DNA of 32,000 nt, taken from contig JAIDOW010000068.1 of NCBI GenBank assembly GCA_029063085.1, positions 1 to 32,000 of the forward strand. The letters are read 5' to 3'. This document shows, in pieces, positions 4,058 to 29,896 of the stretch. The notes under the pieces are model-generated. The model was not told the DNA's origin. It made no database searches and saw only the letters and a program-made list of their open reading frames with translations. Position 1 is the first letter of the stretch; each line of letters starts with the position of its first letter. This DNA comes from Lachnospiraceae bacterium. GTDB taxonomy: Bacteria > Bacillota > Clostridia > Lachnospirales > Lachnospiraceae. Both the position numbers and the translations under genes were made by a program.

Positions 4058-6133
4058 CTACATCTCCCCATCCGCCCGCATTCTTTCAAGCAGTTCGCGG
4101 ATCTGCTCTTTGGCTTCCTCTATGGTCAGGTCTTCCAACTGGGCACCTGCCACGGTTCCATGCCCGCCGCCGCCAAACTGCTCCATAATCACCTGAACAT
4201 TTACATCATCTATTGACCTTGCACTGATATACACCACATTACCAATCTTGGATAATACAAAAGATGCCCTTACATTATCTACATCCAGAAGCTCATTTGC
4301 CACCTTGGCTGCCAGCACTGTAGGACTGTCTACCCCCTCTGTGGGTACATCCGAAATCGCAAAATTATCCATAAACAACTCTGCACGTGCCACACCTTCC
4401 GATAACTGCTTATAGCTTTCCATATCTGTCCGGTATGCCTTGCGGACTCTCGTCATATCTGCACCGGATTTACGAAGAAAAGAAGCCGCTTCAAAGGTTC
4501 TGACACCTGTCTTTGTCACAAAATTATCTGTATCCACCAGAATACCCGCATACATCGCATCTGCTTCTGCCGGCCTTAACTTCGGTTTATCCATACTATA
4601 CTGTAAAATCTCTGCCACCATTTCACAGGCGGAAGAGGCATATGGTTCAATATAGGAAAGAATTGCATGTTCAATGATCTCTCCGCTCTGTCTGTGATGG
4701 TCAATCACCACAATATTTTTTGTATGGGCAAGAAGTTCCTCACACTCTGTATAAGTCGGTCGGTTCACATCCACTACAACCACCACCGTGTTAGGATCCA
4801 CTGCTTCTAATGCCTGTTCACTGTTAAAAAACATATCATCCGGATACACACTGCTTCCCATAAAACTATTCATGGCCGGGCGGATAGAACTGGTCACCTC
4901 ATTAATGACAATATGTGCCTTTTTGTCCATCATGGAAGCCAGACGGTAAATTCCCAGTGCTGCACCCAGACAGTCGATATCCGGTTTCTTATGACCCATA
5001 ATGATAACCCTGTCCTTTGTCACCAGCAATTCCTTTAATGCATGTGCTTTTACCCTCGCTTTTACACGGGTATTTTTCTCTGCCGACTGTGTCTTCCCTC
5101 CATAATAAATAATCTTATCTGCCTTTTTAATAACGGCCTGGTCACCGCCTCTTCCCAAAGCCAGATCCATTGCCATATGGGAATATTCATATGCTGTAGT
5201 ATAATTATCATGCTCCGGGTCAATACCTACCGCTATACTCAGGGTTACCGGAGTATCGTTTCCGATATTGATACTTCTCACTTCATCAAGCAGGGAAAAC
5301 TTTCCCTGTTGCAGCTGCTCCAAATGCTGCTGCTGACAGACAAAAATATACTTGTCTTTTTCCAGCTTCTTAATAATGGCATCAGCACTCTGCATATATT
5401 TTGTAATCTTTCTGTCAATCAATGCCACTAAAAGAGAGCGGCGGACTTCCTCTGTAGAATCCATTGCCTCTTCATAATTATCAATATAAATATGTCCTGC
5501 TACCAGCTTGATCTTCTCTTTTTCTTCTAATGCTTCAACCAGTTCCGTTTCATCATAAAGATAAATTGCAAATAACACATCATCTTCCTCTGCATCCCCG
5601 GCAAGCTCCCTGTTTAAAAGACTCTGTACTTCCACCTTACGAATCTCCACAAGGTAGTTCCGATCCGCCTGGAAAATGTGCACCGTTCTATGGTTTTCGT
5701 CCTCCGGTTCCATTTGAAACAATTCCAATGTAATATCCGTAAAAATATGCTGGATATGCTTACGCATATGCTGTTTATCACTTTTAACCGTATCATAAAA
5801 CGCCTTGTTGCTCCAAAGAACCCGCCCATTTATATCCACCAATGTATAAGGAATTGCCAGTTCCTTGATCAGCTCACTCTGAACAGAACCATGTGCAAAG
5901 CTAAATGCCACCAGATCGGACATGATATTCGGACGCTTTCTAAAATACAGATAACCTGCCGTTGCCAGATGTATTAAAACAAACGCTGTAACAATGATGC
6001 CGCTGGTAATATCTACACTATACACCACACCATTCATAACAAGTAATATGATTGTCATGTAAAATGGTATCTTTAAATATTTTTCAATTTCCTTTCGCAG
6101 TAAATTCTTCTCTTTCATAGCAGTCTCTTTCAT
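4058..6133 (-). CDS. gdpP: GdpP/YybT-type DHH/DHHA1 phosphodiesterase (c-di-AMP phosphodiesterase family)
   Basis: It has two N-terminal TM helices, a degenerate GGDEF segment (LGRGGDQAVIK), DHH motifs (HKKPDIDCLGAALG, VVDVNRP, VIDHHR) and the DHHA1 motif GGGGHGTVAGA. The ORF extends to a GTG at 6169. The ATG at 6133 follows AAGGTGG, and the ATG at 6118 is also possible. Confidence 0.85.
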   Translation of the reverse strand: MKETAMKEKNLLRKEIEKYLKIPFYMTIILLVMNGVVYSVDITSGIIVTAFVLIHLATAGYLYFRKRPNIMSDLVAFSFAHGSVQSELIKELAIPYTLVDINGRVLWSNKAFYDTVKSDKQHMRKHIQHIFTDITLELFQMEPEDENHRTVHIFQADRNYLVEIRKVEVQSLLNRELAGDAEEDDVLFAIYLYDETELVEALEEKEKIKLVAGHIYIDNYEEAMDSTEEVRRSLLVALIDRKITKYMQSADAIIKKLEKDKYIFVCQQQHLEQLQQGKFSLLDEVRSINIGNDTPVTLSIAVGIDPEHDNYTTAYEYSHMAMDLALGRGGDQAVIKKADKIIYYGGKTQSAEKNTRVKARVKAHALKELLVTKDRVIIMGHKKPDIDCLGAALGIYRLASMMDKKAHIVINEVTSSIRPAMNSFMGSSVYPDDMFFNSEQALEAVDPNTVVVVVDVNRPTYTECEELLAHTKNIVVIDHHRQSGEIIEHAILSYIEPYASSACEMVAEILQYSMDKPKLRPAEADAMYAGILVDTDNFVTKTGVRTFEAASFLRKSGADMTRVRKAYRTDMESYKQLSEGVARAELFMDNFAISDVPTEGVDSPTVLAAKVANELLDVDNVRASFVLSKIGNVVYISARSIDDVNVQVIMEQFGGGGHGTVAGAQLEDLTIEEAKEQIRELLERMRADGEM

Positions 6134-23165: not shown

Positions 23166-25091
23166 ATGCACATTTTCATGTCCCATAAAAAAAAGGTCAT
23201 TTTTCTTCTTAGTCTTATTACAATCCTGTTTTGTACATTCCTTTTATCAAACAGCAAAACAGACCTTTCCACCGATACGGAGCAGTTCCATGCCAGACTG
23301 TTGGAAAAAATAGAACAGGCTGATTCTTTTGAAGATTTTACCAATGCACTTTTTTGTTACGAGGTCACGGCTGATTCTATTACTACTGCGTATAAATTAA
23401 AAAATCCCAGCTCCTATGACATTCCCTCACTGCCTGCGGTGCTCTCTTCTTTTTCCTATAAAGATTATGAAAAAAGCAGTCAGAAAAAAAGTGACGGAAA
23501 AATATTTTCCCTTTTATCCTCTACTTTGAAACGTTTCCAATCCGCTGAGCTTTCTTCGCCTGAACAGTTAAGCTTTGAACTTCTCCAAAATCATCTCGCA
23601 CTGAACCAGAAATTAAGCGGCTATGCATATTATGAAGATCTGCTTGGCGCCTCTACTGGTGTACAGGCAAATCTTCCTGTCACACTGGGGGAATATCCTT
23701 TGTATACGGAAGATTCCGTAAAGACTTATCTAACACTGCTCAAACAAATACCCAATTATTTTGATAACGTGATTTCCTACCAAAAACACCGCAATAAAAT
23801 TGGCTTTACTACCCCTGATTTTTTGATGGAGGATACAAAGGCAAAAATGTATACCCTTATAGAAAGCCTGAAAGAACCCGACAACTGCTTTGCGGCCACT
23901 TTTGAAGAGCGGATTGCTTCCACGGACGGATTATCCGCAAAAAAGAAAGCGCACTATACCAGCCAGAACCGCCTGTATATTGAAAAATATATACTGCCAG
24001 CCTATGAATCCCTTTATAGCTATGTAGATTCCTTACTTGACACCTCTGAAAACGGATCACAAAAAAAATCTGCCAAAACAGAACAAACGGATACCTCACA
24101 AAATACCGATTCCTCCGCTATATGTCGTCCAGACCAGCAGACGGCTTATGGTCTTGCTTCCCTTCCTGACGGTGCCGCTTACTATTCCCTGCTGGTTAAG
24201 GATTCCACAGGCTCAGACCGCAGTATGGAAGAATTGATTAGCATGGTTGATTCTTCTTTAAAACAGACTCTCGGCAACGTGCTAAATATTGCCCTTACAG
24301 ACCCAAATGCTTATTACTACTACTGTGAGCATCCAATTGAAACCTATTACCAGACTCCGGAATCTATCCTGGAAGCACTTTCCCTCATGATCAGGGAGGA
24401 TTATCCGGTTCTTAGCACCCCGCCTTCTTACAAGATAAAAACCGTGCCTGACAGTCTTGCCGCTTCTTTAAGTCCGGCTTTTTATATGATTCCGGCCATA
24501 GATGATTATCAAAACAATACCATTTATATCAATCCCCTTTATACAAACGAAGAAAACGGCAACCTGTTTACCACCCTCGCCCATGAAGGCTTTCCCGGTC
24601 ATCTTTACCAGACCGTCTATTTTAACGACACAAATCCTTCTCCCATCCGCAATATTCTGGACTATCCGGGTTATGTGGAGGGATGGGCAACCTACGTGGA
24701 AATGCATTCCTTCTCTTATCTGGATTATCCGTTAGAAGGGGATTCCCTGTGCCGGCTTTATCAGGCAGATACGATCATCAATCTTGCCCTTTGTTCCCGC
24801 ATCGACATGGGGGTCAATTACGAGGGCTGGACTCTGGCAGATACCCGGAAATTTTTTGAGGATAATGGGTTTAACAGCTATTACGCAGAAGATGTATATT
24901 CTTATGTCGTAGAAGCTCCTGCCAATTATTTAAGCTATTTCATTGGATATCTGGAAATTGAAGATTTAAAACAATGCTATAAACAGCAGGAAATGGAGAA
25001 CTATTCCGAGAAAGAATTTCATAAGAAGCTGTTAGATATTGGTCCTTCCGATTTTACAACACTGCGGAAATTTCTGCTGGTAAATCCGTAA
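23166..25091 (+). CDS. DUF885-family (metallopeptidase-like) exported protein
   Basis: 641 aa with an N-terminal hydrophobic anchor and a C-terminal HEGFPGHLYQ...GYVEGWATY signature typical of DUF885. Confidence 0.75.
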   Translation: MHIFMSHKKKVIFLLSLITILFCTFLLSNSKTDLSTDTEQFHARLLEKIEQADSFEDFTNALFCYEVTADSITTAYKLKNPSSYDIPSLPAVLSSFSYKDYEKSSQKKSDGKIFSLLSSTLKRFQSAELSSPEQLSFELLQNHLALNQKLSGYAYYEDLLGASTGVQANLPVTLGEYPLYTEDSVKTYLTLLKQIPNYFDNVISYQKHRNKIGFTTPDFLMEDTKAKMYTLIESLKEPDNCFAATFEERIASTDGLSAKKKAHYTSQNRLYIEKYILPAYESLYSYVDSLLDTSENGSQKKSAKTEQTDTSQNTDSSAICRPDQQTAYGLASLPDGAAYYSLLVKDSTGSDRSMEELISMVDSSLKQTLGNVLNIALTDPNAYYYYCEHPIETYYQTPESILEALSLMIREDYPVLSTPPSYKIKTVPDSLAASLSPAFYMIPAIDDYQNNTIYINPLYTNEENGNLFTTLAHEGFPGHLYQTVYFNDTNPSPIRNILDYPGYVEGWATYVEMHSFSYLDYPLEGDSLCRLYQADTIINLALCSRIDMGVNYEGWTLADTRKFFEDNGFNSYYAEDVYSYVVEAPANYLSYFIGYLEIEDLKQCYKQQEMENYSEKEFHKKLLDIGPSDFTTLRKFLLVNP

Positions 25092-25103
25092 GCCAGCAGA
25101 AAT
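25070..25103. other. Perfect 11-bp inverted repeat shared by two convergent gene ends
   Basis: ATTTCTGCTGG (25070-25080) pairs with CCAGCAGAAAT (25093-25103) across a 12-nt loop that contains the DUF885 stop. The right arm touches the stop of the HipA-like gene. There is no U-tract on either side. Confidence 0.6.
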
Positions 25104-25867
25104 CATTCCTGCAAAACGCCGTTTTTCTCATATCGCAAAAGCTGATACTCCAACACTTCTTTTTCCCTGGAATATGGTTCTGCATCAAGCCACCTGCGGA
25201 CTCCTTGACAATCTAATGTAAACCCTTTTCCAAGATACTCATACATTTTCTCATGAGAACCGGAAAACGGTCTTGCTATTACTCTTTTTACATTCTCTTC
25301 CACCGGAAATTTCCAGTTTACACTTTGGTTAGCAGTAAGCAATGATACTCCATTATCAAAAATAGGTGCACATACAAAATTATCCTTTTTAAAGATCACT
25401 GCCAGATTATTCAAGTGCCGGTCTTCATTAAGAACAATCATATCCAGCATAATAACCTTTTTCAGATAATCCCGTATATCCAGATTACAGCTTTGTTTTA
25501 CAAACCGCAGGACATATTCTATCCGCTCCTCCATCTTATCCATTCCTGCCAAAGCCTGACTTAAATCTTTACCAAACTCATTATAATACAGGCGATAAAT
25601 AGTAACCAGTTCTTCTCCCTCCCCAAGAAAGTTCTTACTCCTGCATCCCGGAATCTCATTGATATACCCTTGCTCGTATAATACATAATCCGTTTGTTCC
25701 ATCTCAGAAAAAGTCAAAAGCTTTGATACCAGATACTCTGCCAGTCCCTCTTTTCCCCTGTTATCCTTTTTGTACCAGTAATCGCCTTTTTTGTATTTTA
25801 TCTGTGTGCCTTCACTGGTTCCTGCCTGTGAAACAATATATTCTTCTTCTACCTTTTCCCGAAACAT
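25103..25867 (-). CDS. HipA-like serine/threonine kinase, catalytic (C-terminal) part
   Basis: A catalytic-loop-like LNEDRHLNNLAVI, a Mg-binding-like PIFDNG and a P-loop-like GTSEGTQIKYKK are present. The SD-like GAGGT lies 6 nt before the ATG. The gene is in the same frame as the upstream ORF. Confidence 0.65.
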   Translation of the reverse strand: MFREKVEEEYIVSQAGTSEGTQIKYKKGDYWYKKDNRGKEGLAEYLVSKLLTFSEMEQTDYVLYEQGYINEIPGCRSKNFLGEGEELVTIYRLYYNEFGKDLSQALAGMDKMEERIEYVLRFVKQSCNLDIRDYLKKVIMLDMIVLNEDRHLNNLAVIFKKDNFVCAPIFDNGVSLLTANQSVNWKFPVEENVKRVIARPFSGSHEKMYEYLGKGFTLDCQGVRRWLDAEPYSREKEVLEYQLLRYEKNGVLQE

Positions 25868-25870
25868 ATT

Positions 25871-26620
25871 CTACCTCACCAAAACATCTTTTGCCGTCAG
25901 CTTCTCACCTGGAAAACGAAACCAAATATAATCATTATAGGATACCCCATGTGTTTTCCTGACCAACTCCTGCGGATTATATTCCGTTAGTTCTAACCGT
26001 TCAAGAATCTGCCGGATATCTCCTCTTCCCTTATCAAAACACCGCATTTCCAAAATCCGGTTCAACTGATATCTTGTCATATTCTCCTTTGCAAACAGCT
26101 GTTTTAATGGATGACTGGAATACCGGGAAACATGTACTCTGCTCCCTTTAACTGCCACCCGAGCTGTAATCTCATCCCGCCAAAATACCTCAAAAGAATA
26201 ATCTTCAAGCATACTCTCCCGCATACGCTGCTTCTCCATTCTCTGTAAAGCCTGCCTTAACTGCTCGCTTAAAAGCTGCTGCTCCTTCCTCTGCATCAAG
26301 AGCTCCTTTCTTCTGGAAATCTCTTTCTCCTCCTGATACACAGCACCTGGATATACCTTTCCCAAACATTTATACTTTAATACACCATCTTCTCTCCATT
26401 GCTCATAATAGTACTTATTTCCTTTAATAGTTTTAATCACAATTGATTTCTGACAGGTTCCCAATTCATCAAGTTCCCTGCCTATTCTTTCCAAATCGGC
26501 AAGAACTTTCTTTTCTTCTGCCAAAATGAACTGATAAATCCGTTCAGCATCCTTCACGACCATCACCTCCTGCCACGTCCCCATATAATGTGACGAATTG
26601 TTATAATCATATTTTAACAT
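25871..26620 (-). CDS. Coiled-coil protein whose C-terminal half resembles the N-terminal domain of Clostridia/Bacteroides HipA-like proteins
   Basis: The C-terminal segment ...RCFDKGRGDIRQILERLELTEYNPQELVRKTHGVSYNDYIWFRFPGEKL... matches, from memory, the pattern that precedes the kinase core in single-chain HipA-like proteins. It ends at a TAG 3 nt before the kinase ATG. The start is uncertain (26620, 26584, 26563 or a GTG at 26557). Confidence 0.5.
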   Translation of the reverse strand: MLKYDYNNSSHYMGTWQEVMVVKDAERIYQFILAEEKKVLADLERIGRELDELGTCQKSIVIKTIKGNKYYYEQWREDGVLKYKCLGKVYPGAVYQEEKEISRRKELLMQRKEQQLLSEQLRQALQRMEKQRMRESMLEDYSFEVFWRDEITARVAVKGSRVHVSRYSSHPLKQLFAKENMTRYQLNRILEMRCFDKGRGDIRQILERLELTEYNPQELVRKTHGVSYNDYIWFRFPGEKLTAKDVLVR

Positions 26621-26689
26621 ACATTTTATTATTTTTCAATGAACATATGTTAAAGCAAAATTGTTATCGTCTGTTAATTCTCCAAAAAC

Positions 26690-27245
26690 AGAAGACCGCT
26701 TTATGGATGTGCATAACTGGCTATGAGATCCCCCTCTGTAACTGCCAAGTATAAGAATGGTTTCATCAAAAATATTGCTTATCTGCGTACACTGGAAATT
26801 TCCATTGAAGATATCCGTAATATCATGTCTAATAAAGTGTCTTTGACAGAAATTATAGAAAAGCAGACTGCAACAATTCAAACACAAATCGAGGGCTTAA
26901 ACAAAGCAAAAACCATGTGCGAAAGAATGCTTGAATCTGAAAATATCAGCTTTGATGAATTACAAGTTGAAAAATATATAGCAGATTTGGAAACTTATTG
27001 GAATGATAATAAACCTATTTTCAAACTGGATTCCGTCAGCTTCTTATATATGGGGCAGCCTTATTACATGGACAATCATTACATTACTATGCTTAATAGT
27101 TGGCATTTTATCATATACAAAATTGCCATCTGAAATTCCTGTTCAGTGGAATAATGGAATCGCAACCGTAAAGCAATCATCATATTTTTCCTTATTCCAT
27201 TACTATCACTTTTTAAGCTATGCGGAATACATAAAAATAGCCTAA
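26690..27245 (+). pseudogene. Decayed MerR-family regulator fused to a DUF1648/SdpI-like membrane module
   Basis: Fragments lie in three frames. They are AKLLSSVNSPKTEDRF (degenerate HTH), KNGF-IKNIAYLRTLEISIEDIRNIM...LNKAKTMCERMLE (MerR dimerisation helix, with the expected YR.Y..ED segment missing), and after another frameshift a TM plus LPSEIPVQWNNG (DUF1648 signature), then premature truncation. Confidence 0.5.
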
Positions 27246-27296: not shown

Positions 27297-27325
27297 AGAA
27301 GGGGACTAGCCCTTCTTCTCTTTTT
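27297..27325. terminator. Bidirectional terminator overlapping the XRE gene stop
   Basis: A 7-bp stem AGAAGGG/CCCTTCT with a 6-nt loop that contains the XRE TAG. The plus side has TCTCTTTTT and the minus side has TTTTTCTTT. Confidence 0.6.
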
Positions 27326-27692
27326 GTAAAGTATTTAATAATTCCTGACTGAAATTTAGAATGGTATCTTGTGATTTATTATCAAGCTGTTGATATACTT
27401 TTGCAATTCCTAAAATAATATCATAAAGTGGATTATTTTCTTTTATTAATAGGTCAGAAACAATCATGGCGGTTTCATCTTCCGGTATCTTATACATTTC
27501 ACCTTTGCCATTTCTAAGCCATTCTTCATTAATGGAAAATTCTCGGCAAATATCAGATATTGTTCTATCTGAAATGTTCTTTTTATTTGTTTCAACTTGA
27601 TTTATAAAGTTTCTTGATAATCCAATTTTATTTGCAAATTGTTCTTGACTTAATTTGTTTTCTTTTCTTATTTGGATAATTCTACTAACCAT
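27306..27692 (-). CDS. XRE-family helix-turn-helix transcriptional regulator
   Basis: The HTH is LSQEQFANKIGLSRNFINQVETNKKNISDRTISDICREF, followed by a ~60-aa C-terminal domain. The SD is AGGAGG. Confidence 0.85.
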   Translation of the reverse strand: MVSRIIQIRKENKLSQEQFANKIGLSRNFINQVETNKKNISDRTISDICREFSINEEWLRNGKGEMYKIPEDETAMIVSDLLIKENNPLYDIILGIAKVYQQLDNKSQDTILNFSQELLNTLQKEKKG

Positions 27693-27715: not shown

Positions 27716-27744
27716 ATTATATAACAAAAAAGTTTACAAGTCAA
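27716..27744 (-). promoter_or_regulatory. Promoter of the XRE gene
   Basis: Minus-sense TTGACT (27744-27739), a 17-nt spacer, then TATAAT (27721-27716). Confidence 0.6.
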
Positions 27745-27754
27745 CAAAGTTGCG

Positions 27755-27783
27755 TTGACAATAGTTTTCTTGTGTGCTATTAT
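27755..27783 (+). promoter_or_regulatory. Divergent promoter for the 48-codon ORF
   Basis: TTGACA (27755-27760), a 17-nt spacer, then TATTAT (27778-27783) with an upstream TG. The direct repeat GTTTACAAG at 27732-27740 and 27786-27794 gives candidate operator half-sites. Confidence 0.6.
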
Positions 27784-28152: not shown

Positions 28153-29802
28153 CTATTTTTCCAATACCAGCACCTCATATGGTCTTAATGTGATAAACTC
28201 TGAAGGTTCTCTTTTTGCTTCCTCACATCCATAATTTCCAAGAATTTTATGATAATCTCTCCATTCCTTCTGACTCTCTACGACTATCTCATTTTCTCCA
28301 AGATTATTTAGAACAATCAGCTCCTCTTCCCCTAAAGTTCTTCTGTATGCCAAAACGTCCGCATTCTCCTCCACAAAAAATTCTATCCTTCCCTTAGCAA
28401 TCACTTCTTTTTCCTTCCGCAGACGAATCAGTTTCTTATAAAATTCCAAAATGGAGTCCGCATCACAAAGCTCCCGTTTTACATTAATCTGCTGGTAATT
28501 ATCTGAAACAGAAATCCAAGGTTCTACATTCGAAAACCCAGCATAATTTGCATCCTCCCACTGCATTGGGGTCCTGCTGTTATCACGGGATCTGGCTGCC
28601 AAAATGTCCAGAGCCTCTTTCTCACTTTTTCCCTGTTCCGTTAAAATCCGATAATAATTCAGGCTTTCCACATCATGGTATTGTTCAATACACTCAAAAT
28701 GGGGATTGGTCATCCCGATTTCCTCACCTTGATAAATATATGGTGTTCCCCTCATCAAATGAACACAGGCCGCCAGCATTTTTGCAGACTCCTTCCAATA
28801 TTTCTTCTCATCTCCCAACCGGGAAACAATCCGCGGCTGATCGTGATTACACCAGAATACTGCATTCCACCCATCTGCTTCCTGCATACCCTCCTGCCAG
28901 GTTTGAAACAGCTTCTTTAAGGCATGTTTATCCGGTTCCATTAATTCCCATTTTTTTCCATCCTTGTAATCCACCTTTAGATGATGAAAATTAAAACACA
29001 TGGACAATTCTTTTTCCGATGGCTTGGAATAACGGATACAATTTTCTAAAGATGTGGAAGACATTTCTCCCACCGTCACCAGTTCTTCTATTCCTGTATC
29101 CCTCACCAGTTCTTTTAAAAATTCATGCACATGATGGCCGTCTGTATAAAAATGTCTGCCGTCTCCGGTCAGATCATCTTCAAATACCTCCGGCTTGGAA
29201 ATCAGATTTACTACATCAAAACGGAAACCTTTGACTCCTTTTCCCTTCCAGAAACGAATCACATTTTTTAACTCTTCACGAACCTCTGGATTTTCCCAAT
29301 TTAAATCTGCCTGTGTCACATCAAAGAGATGCAGATACCATTTTTGCAAATCCGGTATATACTCCCATGCCGGTCCCCCGAATTTAGACTGCCAGTTTGT
29401 AGGGATTTTATCCGGAGTTCCGTCTTTCAATATATAATAATCCTGATATTTTTCCTCTCCTGCCAGTGCTTTCTGGAACCATTCATGGCTTGTGGAAGTA
29501 TGGTTAAATACCATATCCAGCATAATCCCTATTCCTTTTTGTCCTGCTTTCTCTATTAATTCTTCCACATCTGACATCGTTCCGAATTCCGGTGCCACAC
29601 TAATATAGTCCGCTACATCATATCCGTTATCCTTTTGCGGCGAAATGAAAAATGGTGTAAGCCACAGGTAATCAATACCCAATCCCTCCAAATAATCCAG
29701 TTCATCAATAATGCCACGAATATCTCCCACGCCATCTCCATTAGAATCTTTAAAAGATTTCGGATAGATCTGATATATTACTTTATCTCTAAAATCTGCC
29801 AT
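28153..29802 (-). CDS. GH13 alpha-glucosidase of the oligo-1,6-glucosidase / trehalose-6-phosphate hydrolase (TreC/TreA) type
   Basis: DKVIYQIYPKSFKDSNGDGVGDIRGI, GFRFDVVNLI (nucleophile region), VGEM and FWCNHDQPR are present. The ATG at 29802 follows GGAGGG. The upstream extension to 29856 only translates the repeat. The phospho-sugar role is inferred from the PTS partner. Confidence 0.85.
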   Translation of the reverse strand: MADFRDKVIYQIYPKSFKDSNGDGVGDIRGIIDELDYLEGLGIDYLWLTPFFISPQKDNGYDVADYISVAPEFGTMSDVEELIEKAGQKGIGIMLDMVFNHTSTSHEWFQKALAGEEKYQDYYILKDGTPDKIPTNWQSKFGGPAWEYIPDLQKWYLHLFDVTQADLNWENPEVREELKNVIRFWKGKGVKGFRFDVVNLISKPEVFEDDLTGDGRHFYTDGHHVHEFLKELVRDTGIEELVTVGEMSSTSLENCIRYSKPSEKELSMCFNFHHLKVDYKDGKKWELMEPDKHALKKLFQTWQEGMQEADGWNAVFWCNHDQPRIVSRLGDEKKYWKESAKMLAACVHLMRGTPYIYQGEEIGMTNPHFECIEQYHDVESLNYYRILTEQGKSEKEALDILAARSRDNSRTPMQWEDANYAGFSNVEPWISVSDNYQQINVKRELCDADSILEFYKKLIRLRKEKEVIAKGRIEFFVEENADVLAYRRTLGEEELIVLNNLGENEIVVESQKEWRDYHKILGNYGCEEAKREPSEFITLRPYEVLVLEK

Positions 29803-29814
29803 TCCAATTCCCTC

Positions 29815-29896
29815 CATTTGCTGTGATAACCGCCAAATGTGTATGCATCCCCACACTCGGTTTGTTATTTACACAAATTGATTGCCTGTTTGCACG
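29815..29896. repeat. Intergenic repeat, type A copy 3 (fills the PTS-hydrolase spacer)
   Basis: CATTTGCTGTGATAACCGCCAAATGTGTATGCATCCCCACACTCGGTTTGTTATTTACACAAATTGATTGCCTGTTTGCAC aligns with copies 1 and 2. It lacks their gene-proximal ~25 nt. Confidence 0.75.

What the first reader, a model, noticed from the sequence alone, without database searches (positions are those of the whole stretch)
25103..26620. HipA-like kinase split from its N-terminal domain by a single in-frame TAG, with an SD-like site placed for re-initiation
The 249-aa and 254-aa ORFs are in the same reading frame, separated only by TAG-AAT (25873-25868): ...DVLVR-TAG-N-MFREKVEEEY... The downstream part carries kinase-core motifs (GTSEGTQIK, LNEDRHLNN, FDNG). 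The C-terminal half of the upstream part looks like the domain that precedes the kinase in single-chain HipA-like proteins. Its N-terminal ~130 aa is an extra coiled-coil or basic region (IKGNKYYYEQWREDGVLKYKCLG...). The break falls at the domain boundary, and GAGGT lies 6 nt before the kinase ATG. The locus could therefore be one of two things. It could be a toxin gene recently inactivated by a nonsense mutation. Or it could be a functional two-chain system analogous to HipS/HipT, where the detached N-domain acts as antitoxin. No HipB-like gene is directly attached: the nearest HTH gene is ~690 bp upstream (27306), beyond a pseudogene and a terminator.
Basis: partly seen in the sequence, partly recalled or inferred. 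Interest (0 to 1): 0.65.

Follow-up and report, generated by a model that had tools for sequence, protein, structure and literature searches.

The report
Two-gene HipA-like kinase module
The "kinase split by a stop codon" is not a broken gene: it is a conserved two-gene operon in gut Firmicutes, a small HipA-family kinase preceded by a separate partner with a HipS-like domain, and it resembles the HipS/HipT toxin-antitoxin pair but belongs to a large family still annotated as "hypothetical".

Summary
The sequence observation is correct. Two minus-strand ORFs share a reading frame and are separated only by TAG-AAT.

The TAG is an ordinary gene boundary, not a lesion.
- A relative 95.8% identical in DNA has the same junction.
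- Both genes are under strong purifying selection (dN/dS 0.07-0.16).
- In 76 of 81 related loci a homologue of the upstream gene sits directly 5' of the kinase. It is in frame +1 in 34 loci, frame +2 in 31 and the same frame in 11, often overlapping.

The downstream protein (254 aa) is a minimal HipA/CtkA-superfamily kinase with all catalytic motifs. The upstream protein (228 aa) has two parts.
- The conserved C-terminal ~110 aa has a HipS-like fold. It aligns with the N-domain of single-chain relatives, and three natural fusions exist.
- The N-terminal domain is swappable. Here it is helix/beta-meander/helix. Other clades carry Xre, MqsA-like or resolvase HTH domains, or nothing.

The nearby HTH gene is not a conserved component.

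Best reading: a translationally coupled module that works like HipS/HipT and is distantly related to hipIN/PDC-M03. Toxicity and neutralisation are inferred, not shown. I rate it a new variant of a known kind, of moderate interest.

The parts
25871..26557 (-). Gene U: 228-aa partner protein, with probable GTG start at 26557 and TAG stop at 25873-25871. The mechanical ORF extends to the ATG at 26620.
   Evidence: 271+ full-length ~228-aa homologues were found, the best 95% identical. The L001 gene call is 228 aa from the equivalent GTG. dN/dS is 0.08-0.16. The AF2 model has pLDDT 92.4.
26210..26557 (-). U N-terminal accessory domain (aa ~1-116): helix, three-stranded beta-meander (IKGNKYYYEQWREDGVLKYKCLG), long helix. 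Weakly DUF6788-like.
   Evidence: Homologues carry precomputed weak PF20586/DUF6788 hits. Other clades replace this domain with HTH_3, MqsA-like HTH or HTH_7, or lack it.
25874..26209 (-). U C-terminal conserved domain (~112 aa), HipS-like. Invariant R...RC, THGV..ND..W.RF.GE motifs.
   Evidence: It is the only part of U conserved across 76 loci. hhalign to the N-domain of the single-chain HipA_C protein P0118 gives 92% probability, E 5e-7. Foldseek to HipS 7ab3_E gives prob 0.92, TM 0.66, rmsd 3.4 A, but E only 0.43. 16 of 37 members hit PADLOC PDC-M03B. 691 clusters at 50% identity were found.
25873..25877 (-). GAGGT Shine-Dalgarno-like site inside the last codons of U, 5 nt before the kinase ATG. 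It allows translational coupling.
   Evidence: Sequence. GAGG/GGAGG-type sites lie at the equivalent position in most junctions of the survey.
25103..25867 (-). Gene K: 254-aa minimal HipA/CtkA-superfamily Ser/Thr kinase.
   Evidence: Pfam HipA_C E 9.5e-5, below cut-off. PADLOC PDC-M03A E 5e-15. Profile against PDB sequences: CtkA 2e-8, HipT(Lp) 7e-5. AF2 pLDDT 94.3. Foldseek: CtkA E 2e-7 with TM 0.64, HipT(Lp) at 1e-5 to 1e-4, HipA around 1e-3. dN/dS 0.07-0.10.
25796..25822 (-). Gly-rich loop GTSEGTQIK (aa 16-24). S18 is conserved in at least 90% of sequences and is a candidate autophosphorylation site.
   Evidence: Alignment A1 shows G20 and K24 invariant, and S18 and Q22 at 90% or more. This is the only low-confidence segment in the AF2 model. 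The analogy is to HipA Ser150 and HipT Ser57/59 (PMC10627512).
25406..25423 (-). Catalytic loop D149-R-H-L-N-N154.
   Evidence: D149, R150, H151 and N154 are invariant in 40 sequences.
25349..25360 (-). Mg-binding motif F170-D171-N-G173.
   Evidence: F170, D171 and G173 are invariant.
26611..26639 (-). Promoter-like site TTGAAA-17 nt-TAAAAT, with TG before the -10, directly upstream of U.
   Evidence: a consensus match only. The segment is retained in L001 although the sequence upstream of it differs.
25070..25103 (.). 11-bp inverted repeat (ATTTCTGCTGG / CCAGCAGAAAT, 12-nt loop) starting at the kinase stop codon, between the convergent kinase and DUF885 genes. Possible terminator.
   Evidence: Read from the sequence. 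The consensus terminator scan did not call it because it lacks a T-run, so confidence is low.

Best explanation
The locus is an intact, translationally coupled two-gene operon (U then K), not an interrupted gene.

K is a minimal HipA/CtkA-superfamily Ser/Thr kinase. It lacks the N-subdomain that full-length HipA carries.

U supplies that missing piece in trans. Its conserved C-terminal ~110-aa domain has a HipS-like fold and is homologous to the N-terminal domain of single-chain relatives.

By analogy with HipS-HipT, the U C-domain is proposed to dock on the kinase next to the Gly-rich loop and hold it inactive. The kinase, once freed, is proposed to phosphorylate an essential target and arrest growth. 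In the characterised Hip systems that target is an aminoacyl-tRNA synthetase.

The SD inside U's last codons and the 3-nt spacer couple K translation to U translation.

U's N-terminal domain is a swappable accessory. In this clade it is a helix/beta-meander/helix module, probably for oligomerisation or sensing. In other clades it is a DNA-binding HTH that would give autoregulation, as in type II antitoxins.

Shown here: gene integrity, family-wide pairing, purifying selection, kinase fold and catalytic motifs, HipS-like fold and homology of the U C-domain, modularity of U, and the existence of natural fusions. Inferred: physical U-K binding, inhibition, toxicity, the target and the trigger.
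For: Integrity of the two genes:
- The junction is identical in L001 (95.8% nt identity), where K is 94% and U 96% identical.
- dN/dS is 0.08-0.16 for U and 0.07-0.10 for K against three relatives.
- TAG is a routine stop in the window.

Pairing across the family:
- A U homologue lies directly upstream on the same strand in 76 of 81 loci.
- Relative frames are +1 in 34 loci, +2 in 31 and 0 in 11. Overlaps of -4 and -8 nt are common, and all three stop codons are used.
- The order is reversed (K then U) in L055 and in a Cytobacillus plasmid.

Kinase:
- Gly-rich, catalytic and Mg-binding residues are invariant.
- Fold matches to CtkA, HipT and HipA have probability 0.98-1.0 for the best chain of each. 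The profile also hits CtkA and HipT sequences.
- PADLOC PDC-M03A is hit at 5e-15.

U C-domain:
- hhalign gives 92% probability to the N-domain of a 397-aa single-chain HipA_C protein.
- The conceptual U-C+K fusion aligns colinearly with that protein, and the TAG falls in its linker.
- HipS (7ab3_E) is the only compact structural match, with TM 0.66 and rmsd 3.4 A.
- 16 of 37 family members hit PDC-M03B, and no other PADLOC family is hit. PDC-M03B is the HIRAN-domain partner of PDC-M03, which I equate with Gerdes's HipN (N-terminal HipS-like plus C-terminal HIRAN); the hits fall in its N-terminal half.
- Three natural fusions of U-C with the kinase exist: P0310, P0411 and P0424.

Antitoxin-like modularity:
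- HTH_3, MqsA_antitoxin-like and HTH_7 domains are fused to the U C-domain in other clades.

Mobility:
- Flanking genes are not shared between loci.
- Copies occur on Firmicutes plasmids and next to Cas9/WYL or ParAB genes.
Against: - No experiment shows toxicity, binding or neutralisation for any member.
- Sequence links to named Hip families are weak. HipA_C is below Pfam's cut-off. HipA_N, Couple_hipA and NCBIfam give no hit. The U-C profile finds no HipS or HipA among PDB sequences.
- The Foldseek E-value for HipS is only 0.43.
- The closest solved kinase is CtkA, which is described as a proinflammatory kinase of Helicobacter pylori, not as a TA toxin.
- In HipA the equivalent N-subdomain is a structural part of the enzyme, not an inhibitor. 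Fused forms exist in this family too, so U could be an obligatory subunit rather than an antitoxin.
- The window's clade has no DNA-binding domain in the operon, which is atypical for type II TA autoregulation.
- The window's context is sugar-metabolism genes, not a mobile element or defence island.
Confidence: 0.68

Rival explanations
1. Recent pseudogenisation. A single-chain HipA-like gene acquired a CAG/AAG/TAC-to-TAG nonsense mutation, and the downstream half is a decaying remnant or is fortuitously re-initiated.
For: The two ORFs are in frame with only 6 nt between the coding parts. Single-chain relatives exist: P0116-P0120, P0310, P0411 and P0424.
Against: The same TAG junction is present in a relative with dS 0.14-0.28. 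dN/dS is about 0.1 for both halves. 65 of 76 related loci have the two genes in different frames or overlapping. Kinase homologues begin at the same Met, and U homologues end at the same Arg. A genuine decay example looks different: L054 has an in-frame stop inside the kinase near the Gly-rich loop and no U gene.
Confidence: 0.02
2. A two-subunit kinase that is not a toxin. U is an obligatory structural or regulatory subunit, the detached equivalent of HipA N-subdomain 1. The complex is the active signalling enzyme, and no toxin/antitoxin relationship exists.
For: In HipA the homologous subdomain is an integral lid of the enzyme (PMC10627512). Fused forms occur in this family. The closest solved structure, CtkA, is not a TA toxin. 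The window's context is housekeeping.
Against: U partners in other clades carry Xre or MqsA-type HTH domains typical of type II antitoxins. Distribution is patchy and independent of context, including plasmids. Tight coupling with the partner gene first fits the usual antitoxin-toxin layout. The nearest HMM families belong to PDC-M03, which I equate with Gerdes's candidate hipIN TA module (PMC8262856, PMC13245101).
Confidence: 0.2
3. An abortive-infection anti-phage system. This is the same architecture as the best explanation, but its biological role is defence. U's variable N-terminal domain senses a phage cue and releases the kinase.
For: K and the U C-domain hit only the PADLOC phage-defence-candidate families PDC-M03A and PDC-M03B. 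The short-form module lies next to a WYL protein and a Cas9 locus in four contigs, L082-L085. A swappable N-terminal domain on a conserved inhibitor resembles sensor modularity. Gerdes et al. proposed an abortive-infection role for hipIN and hipL (PMC8262856).
Against: PDC-M03 itself is untested (bioRxiv 10.1101/2024.01.29.577857). The window and most surveyed loci show no defence genes nearby. The Cas9 adjacency is a single lineage. No systematic enrichment test was done.
Confidence: 0.25
4. Programmed low-level read-through of the TAG yields a minor single-chain U-K fusion with a regulatory role, alongside the two separate proteins.
For: The layout 'stop + 3 nt + ATG' in frame recurs in seven related loci besides the window: L001-L003 with TAG, L007, L008 and L012 with TGA, and L081 with TAG. 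Natural fusions show that a covalently linked form folds.
Against: Within the same clade, L004, L009-L011 and L013-L016 are out of frame. Stop identity varies. No read-through context or Pyl machinery was examined. The 11 of 76 in-frame loci are fewer than the one-third expected by chance.
Confidence: 0.04

Closest known systems
HipBST (E. coli O127:H6; Legionella pneumophila): split HipA with HipS antitoxin and HipT kinase
   Same: A kinase lacking N-subdomain 1 is encoded immediately downstream of a separate ~100-aa domain with the HipS / N-subdomain-1 fold. The gene order is partner then kinase. The catalytic motifs are conserved, and a conserved Ser sits next to the Gly-rich loop (PMC10627512, PMC6581861).
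   Different: No HipB cistron is present. The kinase is shorter (254 aa against ~335) and lacks HipT's N-terminal mini-domain. HipT of E. coli scores only E 0.28 in the profile search. U carries an extra N-terminal domain, or in other clades a fused HTH, so the roles of HipB and HipS are merged or replaced. The taxa are Firmicutes rather than Proteobacteria.
hipIN / hipJS modules of Hip clade XI (Gerdes et al. 2021); I equate hipIN with PADLOC candidate PDC-M03
   Same: These have short core-only kinases paired with a partner containing a HipS-like domain plus a variable second domain. They are the best HMM hits: PDC-M03A at 5e-15 and PDC-M03B in 16 of 37 family members. Function is only predicted there too.
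   Different: In those modules the partner gene is downstream. Here it is upstream in 76 of 81 loci, with a few reversed. There is no HIRAN domain. The accessory domain is N-terminal and is DUF6788-like, HTH or absent. The kinase is smaller than the 279-321 aa reported. The HMM matches are partial. Only 14 hipIN and 2 hipJS modules were catalogued, against 691 clusters at 50% identity here.
CtkA (JHP0940), Helicobacter pylori proinflammatory Ser/Thr kinase (PDB 3AKJ/3AKK)
   Same: It is the closest solved structure and sequence for K: Foldseek E 2e-7 with TM 0.64, and profile E 2e-8 over the catalytic and Mg-binding loops. It is a stand-alone HipA-like core kinase.
   Different: CtkA is 325 aa and only 16% identical.
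HipA (E. coli K-12) single-chain kinase with HipB antitoxin
   Same: It belongs to the same superfamily. The domain order N-subdomain then kinase is colinear with U-C then K, and rare natural fusions in this family recreate it.
   Different: HipA is one polypeptide of 440 aa, neutralised by the HTH protein HipB. Structural similarity is weaker, with Foldseek E around 1e-3.

Membership tests
HipA/CtkA kinase superfamily (Pfam HipA_C clan) | Score at or above the Pfam HipA_C gathering threshold | tested here: not met
   22.6 bits against a cut-off of 30.5, E 9.5e-5. NCBIfam gives no hit.
HipA/CtkA kinase superfamily (Pfam HipA_C clan) | HipA-type kinase fold | tested here: met
   The AF2 model has pLDDT 94.3. 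Foldseek gives probability 1.00 for CtkA and HipT(Lp) with TM 0.53-0.65, and 0.91-0.99 for HipA chains.
HipA/CtkA kinase superfamily (Pfam HipA_C clan) | Gly-rich loop, catalytic D-x-H-x-x-N and Mg-binding D conserved | tested here: met
   G20, K24, D149, R150, H151, N154 and D171 are invariant in 40 family members.
HipBST-type split kinase system | Kinase lacks N-subdomain 1, and a separate HipS-fold protein is encoded immediately upstream | tested here: met
   The Gly-rich loop starts at residue 16 of K. The U C-domain matches HipS 7ab3_E with TM 0.66 and rmsd 3.4 A. hhalign gives 92% probability to the N-domain of a single-chain relative. Pairing holds in 76 of 81 loci.
HipBST-type split kinase system | HTH protein HipB as first cistron of a tricistronic operon | tested here: not met
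   The HTH gene at 27306-27692 is about 750 nt upstream of the GTG start at 26557, behind its own terminator and a gene remnant. It is linked to U only in the window and L001.
HipBST-type split kinase system | Kinase belongs to the HipT clade by sequence | tested here: not met
   The profile scores E 0.28 against E. coli HipT and 7e-5 against L. pneumophila HipT. CtkA and PDC-M03A score better.
HipBST-type split kinase system | HipS neutralises the toxic kinase; the target is an aminoacyl-tRNA synthetase | not testable with these tools
   This needs expression, rescue and phosphoproteomics experiments.
hipIN / PDC-M03 | Short core kinase matching the PDC-M03A models | tested here: inconclusive
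   Six PDC-M03A models are hit, the best at 5e-15, but only over residues 37-181. PADLOC's own thresholds were not available.
hipIN / PDC-M03 | [quoted passage not shown] | tested here: not met
   The partner is upstream. No HIRAN hit appears in Pfam or PADLOC. Only the HipS-like part of PDC-M03B (profile positions 66-112 of 232) is matched.
Pseudogene (nonsense-disrupted ORF) | Close relatives carry an uninterrupted gene, and selection on the fragments is relaxed | tested here: not met
   The junction is the same in L001, dN/dS is about 0.1 for both genes, and the two-gene layout is family-wide.

The most novel reading that the evidence does not exclude
The module may be a sensor-coupled abortive-infection kinase. 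On this reading the conserved HipS-like clamp is fused to interchangeable N-terminal 'input' domains: the DUF6788-like helix/beta/helix domain here, and Xre, MqsA-like or resolvase HTH domains elsewhere. These would detect different phage or stress cues and release a minimal HipA-like kinase. The family would then be a large, unrecognised, domain-shuffling branch of Hip systems in gut Firmicutes. Fusion and fission between one- and two-chain forms would still be ongoing, and the in-frame stop + 3 nt + ATG junction would be a snapshot of that process.
Probability: 0.15. Interest if true: 0.7.

Novelty: new variant of a known kind. Interest (0 to 1): 0.5.

Why it matters
HipA-type kinases are the founding model of bacterial persistence, and HipBST showed that the kinase's own N-subdomain can be detached and act as the antitoxin.

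This locus belongs to a much larger family built on the same principle, and it is essentially unannotated.
- The partner domain forms 691 clusters at 50% identity.
- Relatives of the kinase were confirmed at more than 500 places in the collection of GTDB species-representative genomes.
- Every public name I saw was "hypothetical protein" or "helix-turn-helix domain-containing protein".

The family is mostly in Lachnospiraceae and other Firmicutes. The gene order is partner first, and the HipS-like domain is combined with several different accessory domains. Both gene orders and natural single-chain fusions occur.

That gives a natural series for asking when the N-subdomain acts as a structural lid and when it acts as an inhibitor. 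It also extends Hip systems into abundant gut anaerobes. For genome annotation, the result warns against calling in-frame adjacent genes pseudogenes.

Tried and rejected
- Pfam and NCBIfam on U and on the conceptual read-through protein gave no HipA_N or Couple_hipA hit, only sub-threshold noise such as Glyco_hydro_25 and Peptidase_S15.
- Pfam on 37 U C-domains gave only scattered single hits.
- The U C-domain profile against PDB sequences gave only a chance homeobox match, E 0.58.
- Foldseek with full-length U is dominated by coiled-coil matches (prefoldin, V-ATPase stalk, XLF) with rmsd above 10 A. I disregard these, so the N-domain fold stays unassigned.
- Foldseek of U against viral structures gave nothing meaningful.
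- PHROGs gave only weak hits of unknown function for K.
- The first homologue search used the fused query and missed the closest relatives of both halves. I corrected this by searching U alone and by looking up loci.
- I tested whether the HTH gene at 27306 acts as HipB. I rejected it because it is linked to U only in the window and L001, and because upstream genes differ in ten other loci of the same clade.
- I considered TAG being decoded as a sense codon and rejected it. TAG ends 8 of the 20 ORFs checked in the window, including Pfam-complete genes.
- Literature searches for DUF6788, and for CtkA together with HipA and antitoxin, found nothing.
- The supplementary tables of Gerdes 2021 held as text do not name organisms, so I could not check whether any member of this family was in their set.
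- A prediction of the U-K complex was not possible, because only two structure jobs were allowed and concatenated sequences are not accepted.
Full report
**1. Observation**

On the minus strand, the ORF listing gives a 249-aa ORF (26620..25871) and a 254-aa ORF (25867..25103) in the same frame. The sequence at the junction is GTG AGG TAG AAT ATG. TAG lies at 25873-25871 and the ATG at 25867-25865. GAGGT (25877-25873) ends 5 nt before the ATG.

One refinement concerns the start of the upstream gene ("U" below). Its real start is most likely GTG 26557, 8 nt after GGAGG, giving 228 aa. Homologues are 228 aa and begin there. A promoter-like site (TTGAAA-17-TAAAAT, 26639-26611) lies downstream of the ATG at 26620.

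**2. Is the TAG a lesion? No.**

(a) A metagenomic contig, L001, is 95.8% identical in DNA over 4.7 kb. It has the identical junction GTGAGGTAGAATATG. Its kinase is 240/254 identical and its U protein 218/228 identical.

(b) I computed Nei-Gojobori dN/dS against three relatives (L001, L002, L003). The values are 0.16, 0.08 and 0.085 for U, and 0.10, 0.07 and 0.10 for the kinase ("K" below). dS reaches 1-2. Both halves are under strong purifying selection.

(c) About 115 homologues of K are 267-330 aa proteins that match only the kinase half. The closest ones begin at the same Met. More than 271 homologues of U are full-length proteins of about 228 aa, and those aligned end at the same Arg.

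(d) A scan of one genome per GTDB species with a kinase alignment found more than 500 places that encode a relative of the kinase, and 80 were fetched. I analysed 81 loci (L001-L081).
- In 76 of them a U homologue lies directly upstream on the same strand.
- The kinase is in frame +1 relative to U in 34 loci, in frame +2 in 31, and in the same frame in only 11.
- Overlaps of 4 nt (13 loci) and 8 nt (14 loci) are the commonest junctions.
- All three stop codons are used.

So the in-frame arrangement is a peculiarity of a sub-clade and occurs less often than the one-in-three expected by chance.

(e) TAG ends 8 of the 20 ORFs checked in the window, so it is a normal stop codon here.

For contrast, a locus that really looks decayed exists. 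In L054 (Coprococcus catus) the kinase is cut by an in-frame stop near the Gly-rich loop, and no U gene is present.

**3. The kinase**

Sequence evidence is modest.
- Pfam HipA_C is hit only below threshold: 22.6 bits against a cut-off of 30.5, E 9.5e-5.
- NCBIfam gives nothing.
- A 40-sequence family alignment shows invariant G20 and K24 (Gly-rich loop), D149-R-H and N154 (catalytic loop), and D171 (Mg-binding), plus a 90%-or-more conserved S18 next to the Gly-rich loop.
- The family profile finds CtkA (E 2e-8) and L. pneumophila HipT (7e-5) among PDB sequences.

Structural evidence is stronger.
- AlphaFold2 gives a confident model, pLDDT 94.3 and pTM 0.91. The only low-confidence segment (residues 16-19) lies in the Gly-rich loop.
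- Foldseek matches CtkA (E 2e-7, TM 0.64), HipT(Lp) (1e-5 to 1e-4, TM about 0.55) and HipA (about 1e-3), with probability 0.98-1.0 for the best chain of each.
- PADLOC's candidate family PDC-M03A is hit at 5e-15.

K is therefore a minimal, apparently active kinase of the HipA/CtkA superfamily without the N-subdomain.

**4. The upstream protein**

AlphaFold2 (pLDDT 92.4) predicts two domains.
- Residues about 1-118 form a helix, a three-stranded beta-meander and a long helix.
- Residues about 120-230 form a compact alpha/beta domain.

Only the C-terminal ~110 aa are conserved across the 76 loci. Four independent lines tie this domain to the HipS / HipA N-subdomain-1 type.
1. hhalign of the domain profile against the 397-aa single-chain HipA_C protein P0118 matches its N-terminal residues 34-117 with 92% probability, E 5e-7.
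2. The conceptual fusion U-C + TAG + K aligns colinearly with P0118 over 304 columns (E 9e-16). The TAG falls in the interdomain linker.
3. In the Foldseek search with full-length U, the only compact match is HipS of E. coli HipBST (7ab3_E): prob 0.92, TM 0.66 normalised to HipS, rmsd 3.4 A over 103 columns. Its E-value is only 0.43, because the query also contains the coiled-coil domain.
4. 16 of 37 diverse U C-domains hit PADLOC PDC-M03B (best 1.2e-5), and no other PADLOC family is hit.

On point 4, PDC-M03 is a HipA protein plus a HIRAN-domain protein (PMC13245101). [quoted passage not shown] The matches fall in that N-terminal part, at profile positions 66-112 of 232.

Direct sequence searches against Pfam and PDB sequences find no HipS, HipA_N or Couple_hipA. 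The relationship is therefore remote.

**5. Family size and architecture**

The U C-domain profile retrieves 2173 proteins at 90% clustering. An exhaustive HMMER search finds 691 clusters at 50% identity with E at or below 1e-3, and 277 at or below 1e-10. Most are stand-alone proteins of 110-130 aa.

The region N-terminal to the conserved domain is interchangeable.
- In the window's clade (L001-L004, L007-L016) it is the helix/beta/helix domain, weakly DUF6788-like.
- In at least 24 loci it is an Xre-type HTH.
- Pfam confirms HTH_3, MqsA_antitoxin-like HTH and resolvase HTH_7 in representatives.
- In others it is absent.

Three representatives (P0310, P0411, P0424; 376-384 aa) are natural single-chain fusions of the U C-domain with the kinase. 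The reversed order, K then U, occurs in L055 and on a Cytobacillus plasmid.

Public annotations are "hypothetical protein" or "helix-turn-helix domain-containing protein". An example is the pair WP_012740875 and WP_041688992 in Lachnospira eligens ATCC 27750.

**6. Surroundings**

The HTH gene at 27306-27692 is an Xre-type regulator (HTH_19/HTH_3, E about 1e-12) with its own terminator-like hairpin at 27320-27293. It lies next to U only in the window and in L001, where it is 197 nt upstream.

In ten other loci of the same clade the upstream genes are unrelated and differ from one another. Flanking genes are not shared between loci in general. The HTH gene is therefore a neighbour, not a HipB-like component.

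The window carries an extra ~575 nt (26655-27228) between the HTH gene and U. This is a remnant of a MerR-type C-terminal region plus a DUF1648 membrane protein on the plus strand, and L001 lacks it.

The rest of the window encodes sugar-utilisation genes: GH1, an ABC transporter, GH13 and a PTS.

Elsewhere the module lies next to a WYL protein and Cas9 (L082-L085). The single-chain form lies next to ParA/ParB. Homologues occur on Firmicutes plasmids and in a few unannotated 'Bacteriophage sp.' contigs from human faeces.

**7. Mechanism**

Shown:
- The operon is intact and selected, with an SD embedded in U's last codons.
- K is a catalytically complete minimal HipA-type kinase.
- The partner's conserved domain has a HipS-like fold and is homologous to the N-domain of fused relatives.

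Inferred by analogy with HipBST:
- The U C-domain binds beside the Gly-rich loop and keeps K inactive. In HipBST, HipS occupies the N-subdomain-1 position and its Trp65 blocks the Gly-rich loop (PMC10627512).
- Free K phosphorylates an essential target and stops growth.
- Translational coupling keeps U at or above the level of K.
- S18 may be an autophosphorylation site.
- The N-domain of U in this clade probably mediates oligomerisation or signal input. In HTH-bearing clades it would provide autoregulation.

I put about 0.9 on the architecture claim and about 0.55 on the toxin-antitoxin function. The main rival is that U is an obligatory subunit of a non-toxic kinase. An anti-phage role is compatible with the best explanation but rests on thin evidence.

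**8. Comparison and novelty**

The locus works like HipS/HipT but fails membership of HipBST. It has no HipB cistron and the kinase is not in the HipT clade.

It is distantly related to hipIN/PDC-M03 and hipJS but differs in several ways. The gene order is the opposite. There is no HIRAN domain. The accessory domain sits at the other end of the partner. The kinase is smaller.

Gerdes et al. catalogued only 14 hipIN and 2 hipJS modules among 1,239 kinases, of which 5% were from Firmicutes (supplement). I found no description of this family in the literature held.

I rate it a new variant of a known kind, of moderate interest.

Noticed in passing
window 26655-27228 (+ strand ORFs 26723-27133 and 27003-27245): About 575 nt lie between the HTH gene and U that the 95.8%-identical relative L001 lacks. 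They hold a remnant of a MerR-type regulator C-terminal region (weak MerR-DNA-bind hit) followed, out of frame, by a DUF1648 membrane-protein N-terminus (E 4e-8). This is either an insertion or deletion difference between close relatives or a decayed gene.
   Followed up: partly
window ~27952 and beyond, compared with L001 1-5160: Synteny with L001 ends just upstream of the HTH gene. L001 has a PEPCK gene there, whereas the window has a GH13 alpha-amylase-family gene (28153-29856) and a PTS EIIABC gene. This marks a recombination breakpoint beside the HTH-U-K block.
   Followed up: no
L054 4937-5768 (Coprococcus catus VPIC661): A kinase homologue really is interrupted here by an in-frame stop at 5072-5074, just after the Gly-rich-loop region, and no U homologue lies upstream. 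It looks like a genuine pseudogene and makes a useful contrast to the window.
   Followed up: partly
L077 4491-4999 (Paenibacillus rhizoplanae): The U homologue is split into two overlapping ORFs (4491-4899 and 4879-4999). This suggests a frameshifted partner gene next to an intact kinase.
   Followed up: no
L082-L085 6001-8170 and onward: A short-form U (129 aa) and kinase (251 aa) lie immediately upstream of a WYL-domain protein and a type II Cas9 gene, in four contigs of what appears to be one Lachnospiraceae lineage.
   Followed up: partly
L055 423-1693; L088 2959-4165 (Cytobacillus solani plasmid NZ_CP085713.1): The gene order is reversed: the kinase comes first and a 128-135-aa U C-domain homologue follows within 2-13 nt, as in hipJS.
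   Followed up: partly
P0310, P0411, P0424 (376-384 aa); P0116-P0120 (392-397 aa): These are natural single-chain proteins with the U-type domain fused N-terminally to the kinase. P0117 is encoded next to ParA/ParB genes (L086).
   Followed up: partly
P0002, P0004, P0006, P0051, P0058: Some database 'proteins' join a kinase homologue to unrelated Pfam domains (for example PF09269, LRR, PAS/HhH, MCP signal) on short contigs. They are probably gene-calling or assembly chimeras and were excluded from the alignments.
   Followed up: no
window 27716-27783: Strong divergent promoter-like sites lie upstream of the HTH gene: TTGACT-17-TATAAT on the minus strand and TTGACA-17-TATTAT on the plus strand. 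An inverted repeat (27740-27759) sits between them and is a plausible operator for the Xre-type regulator.
   Followed up: no
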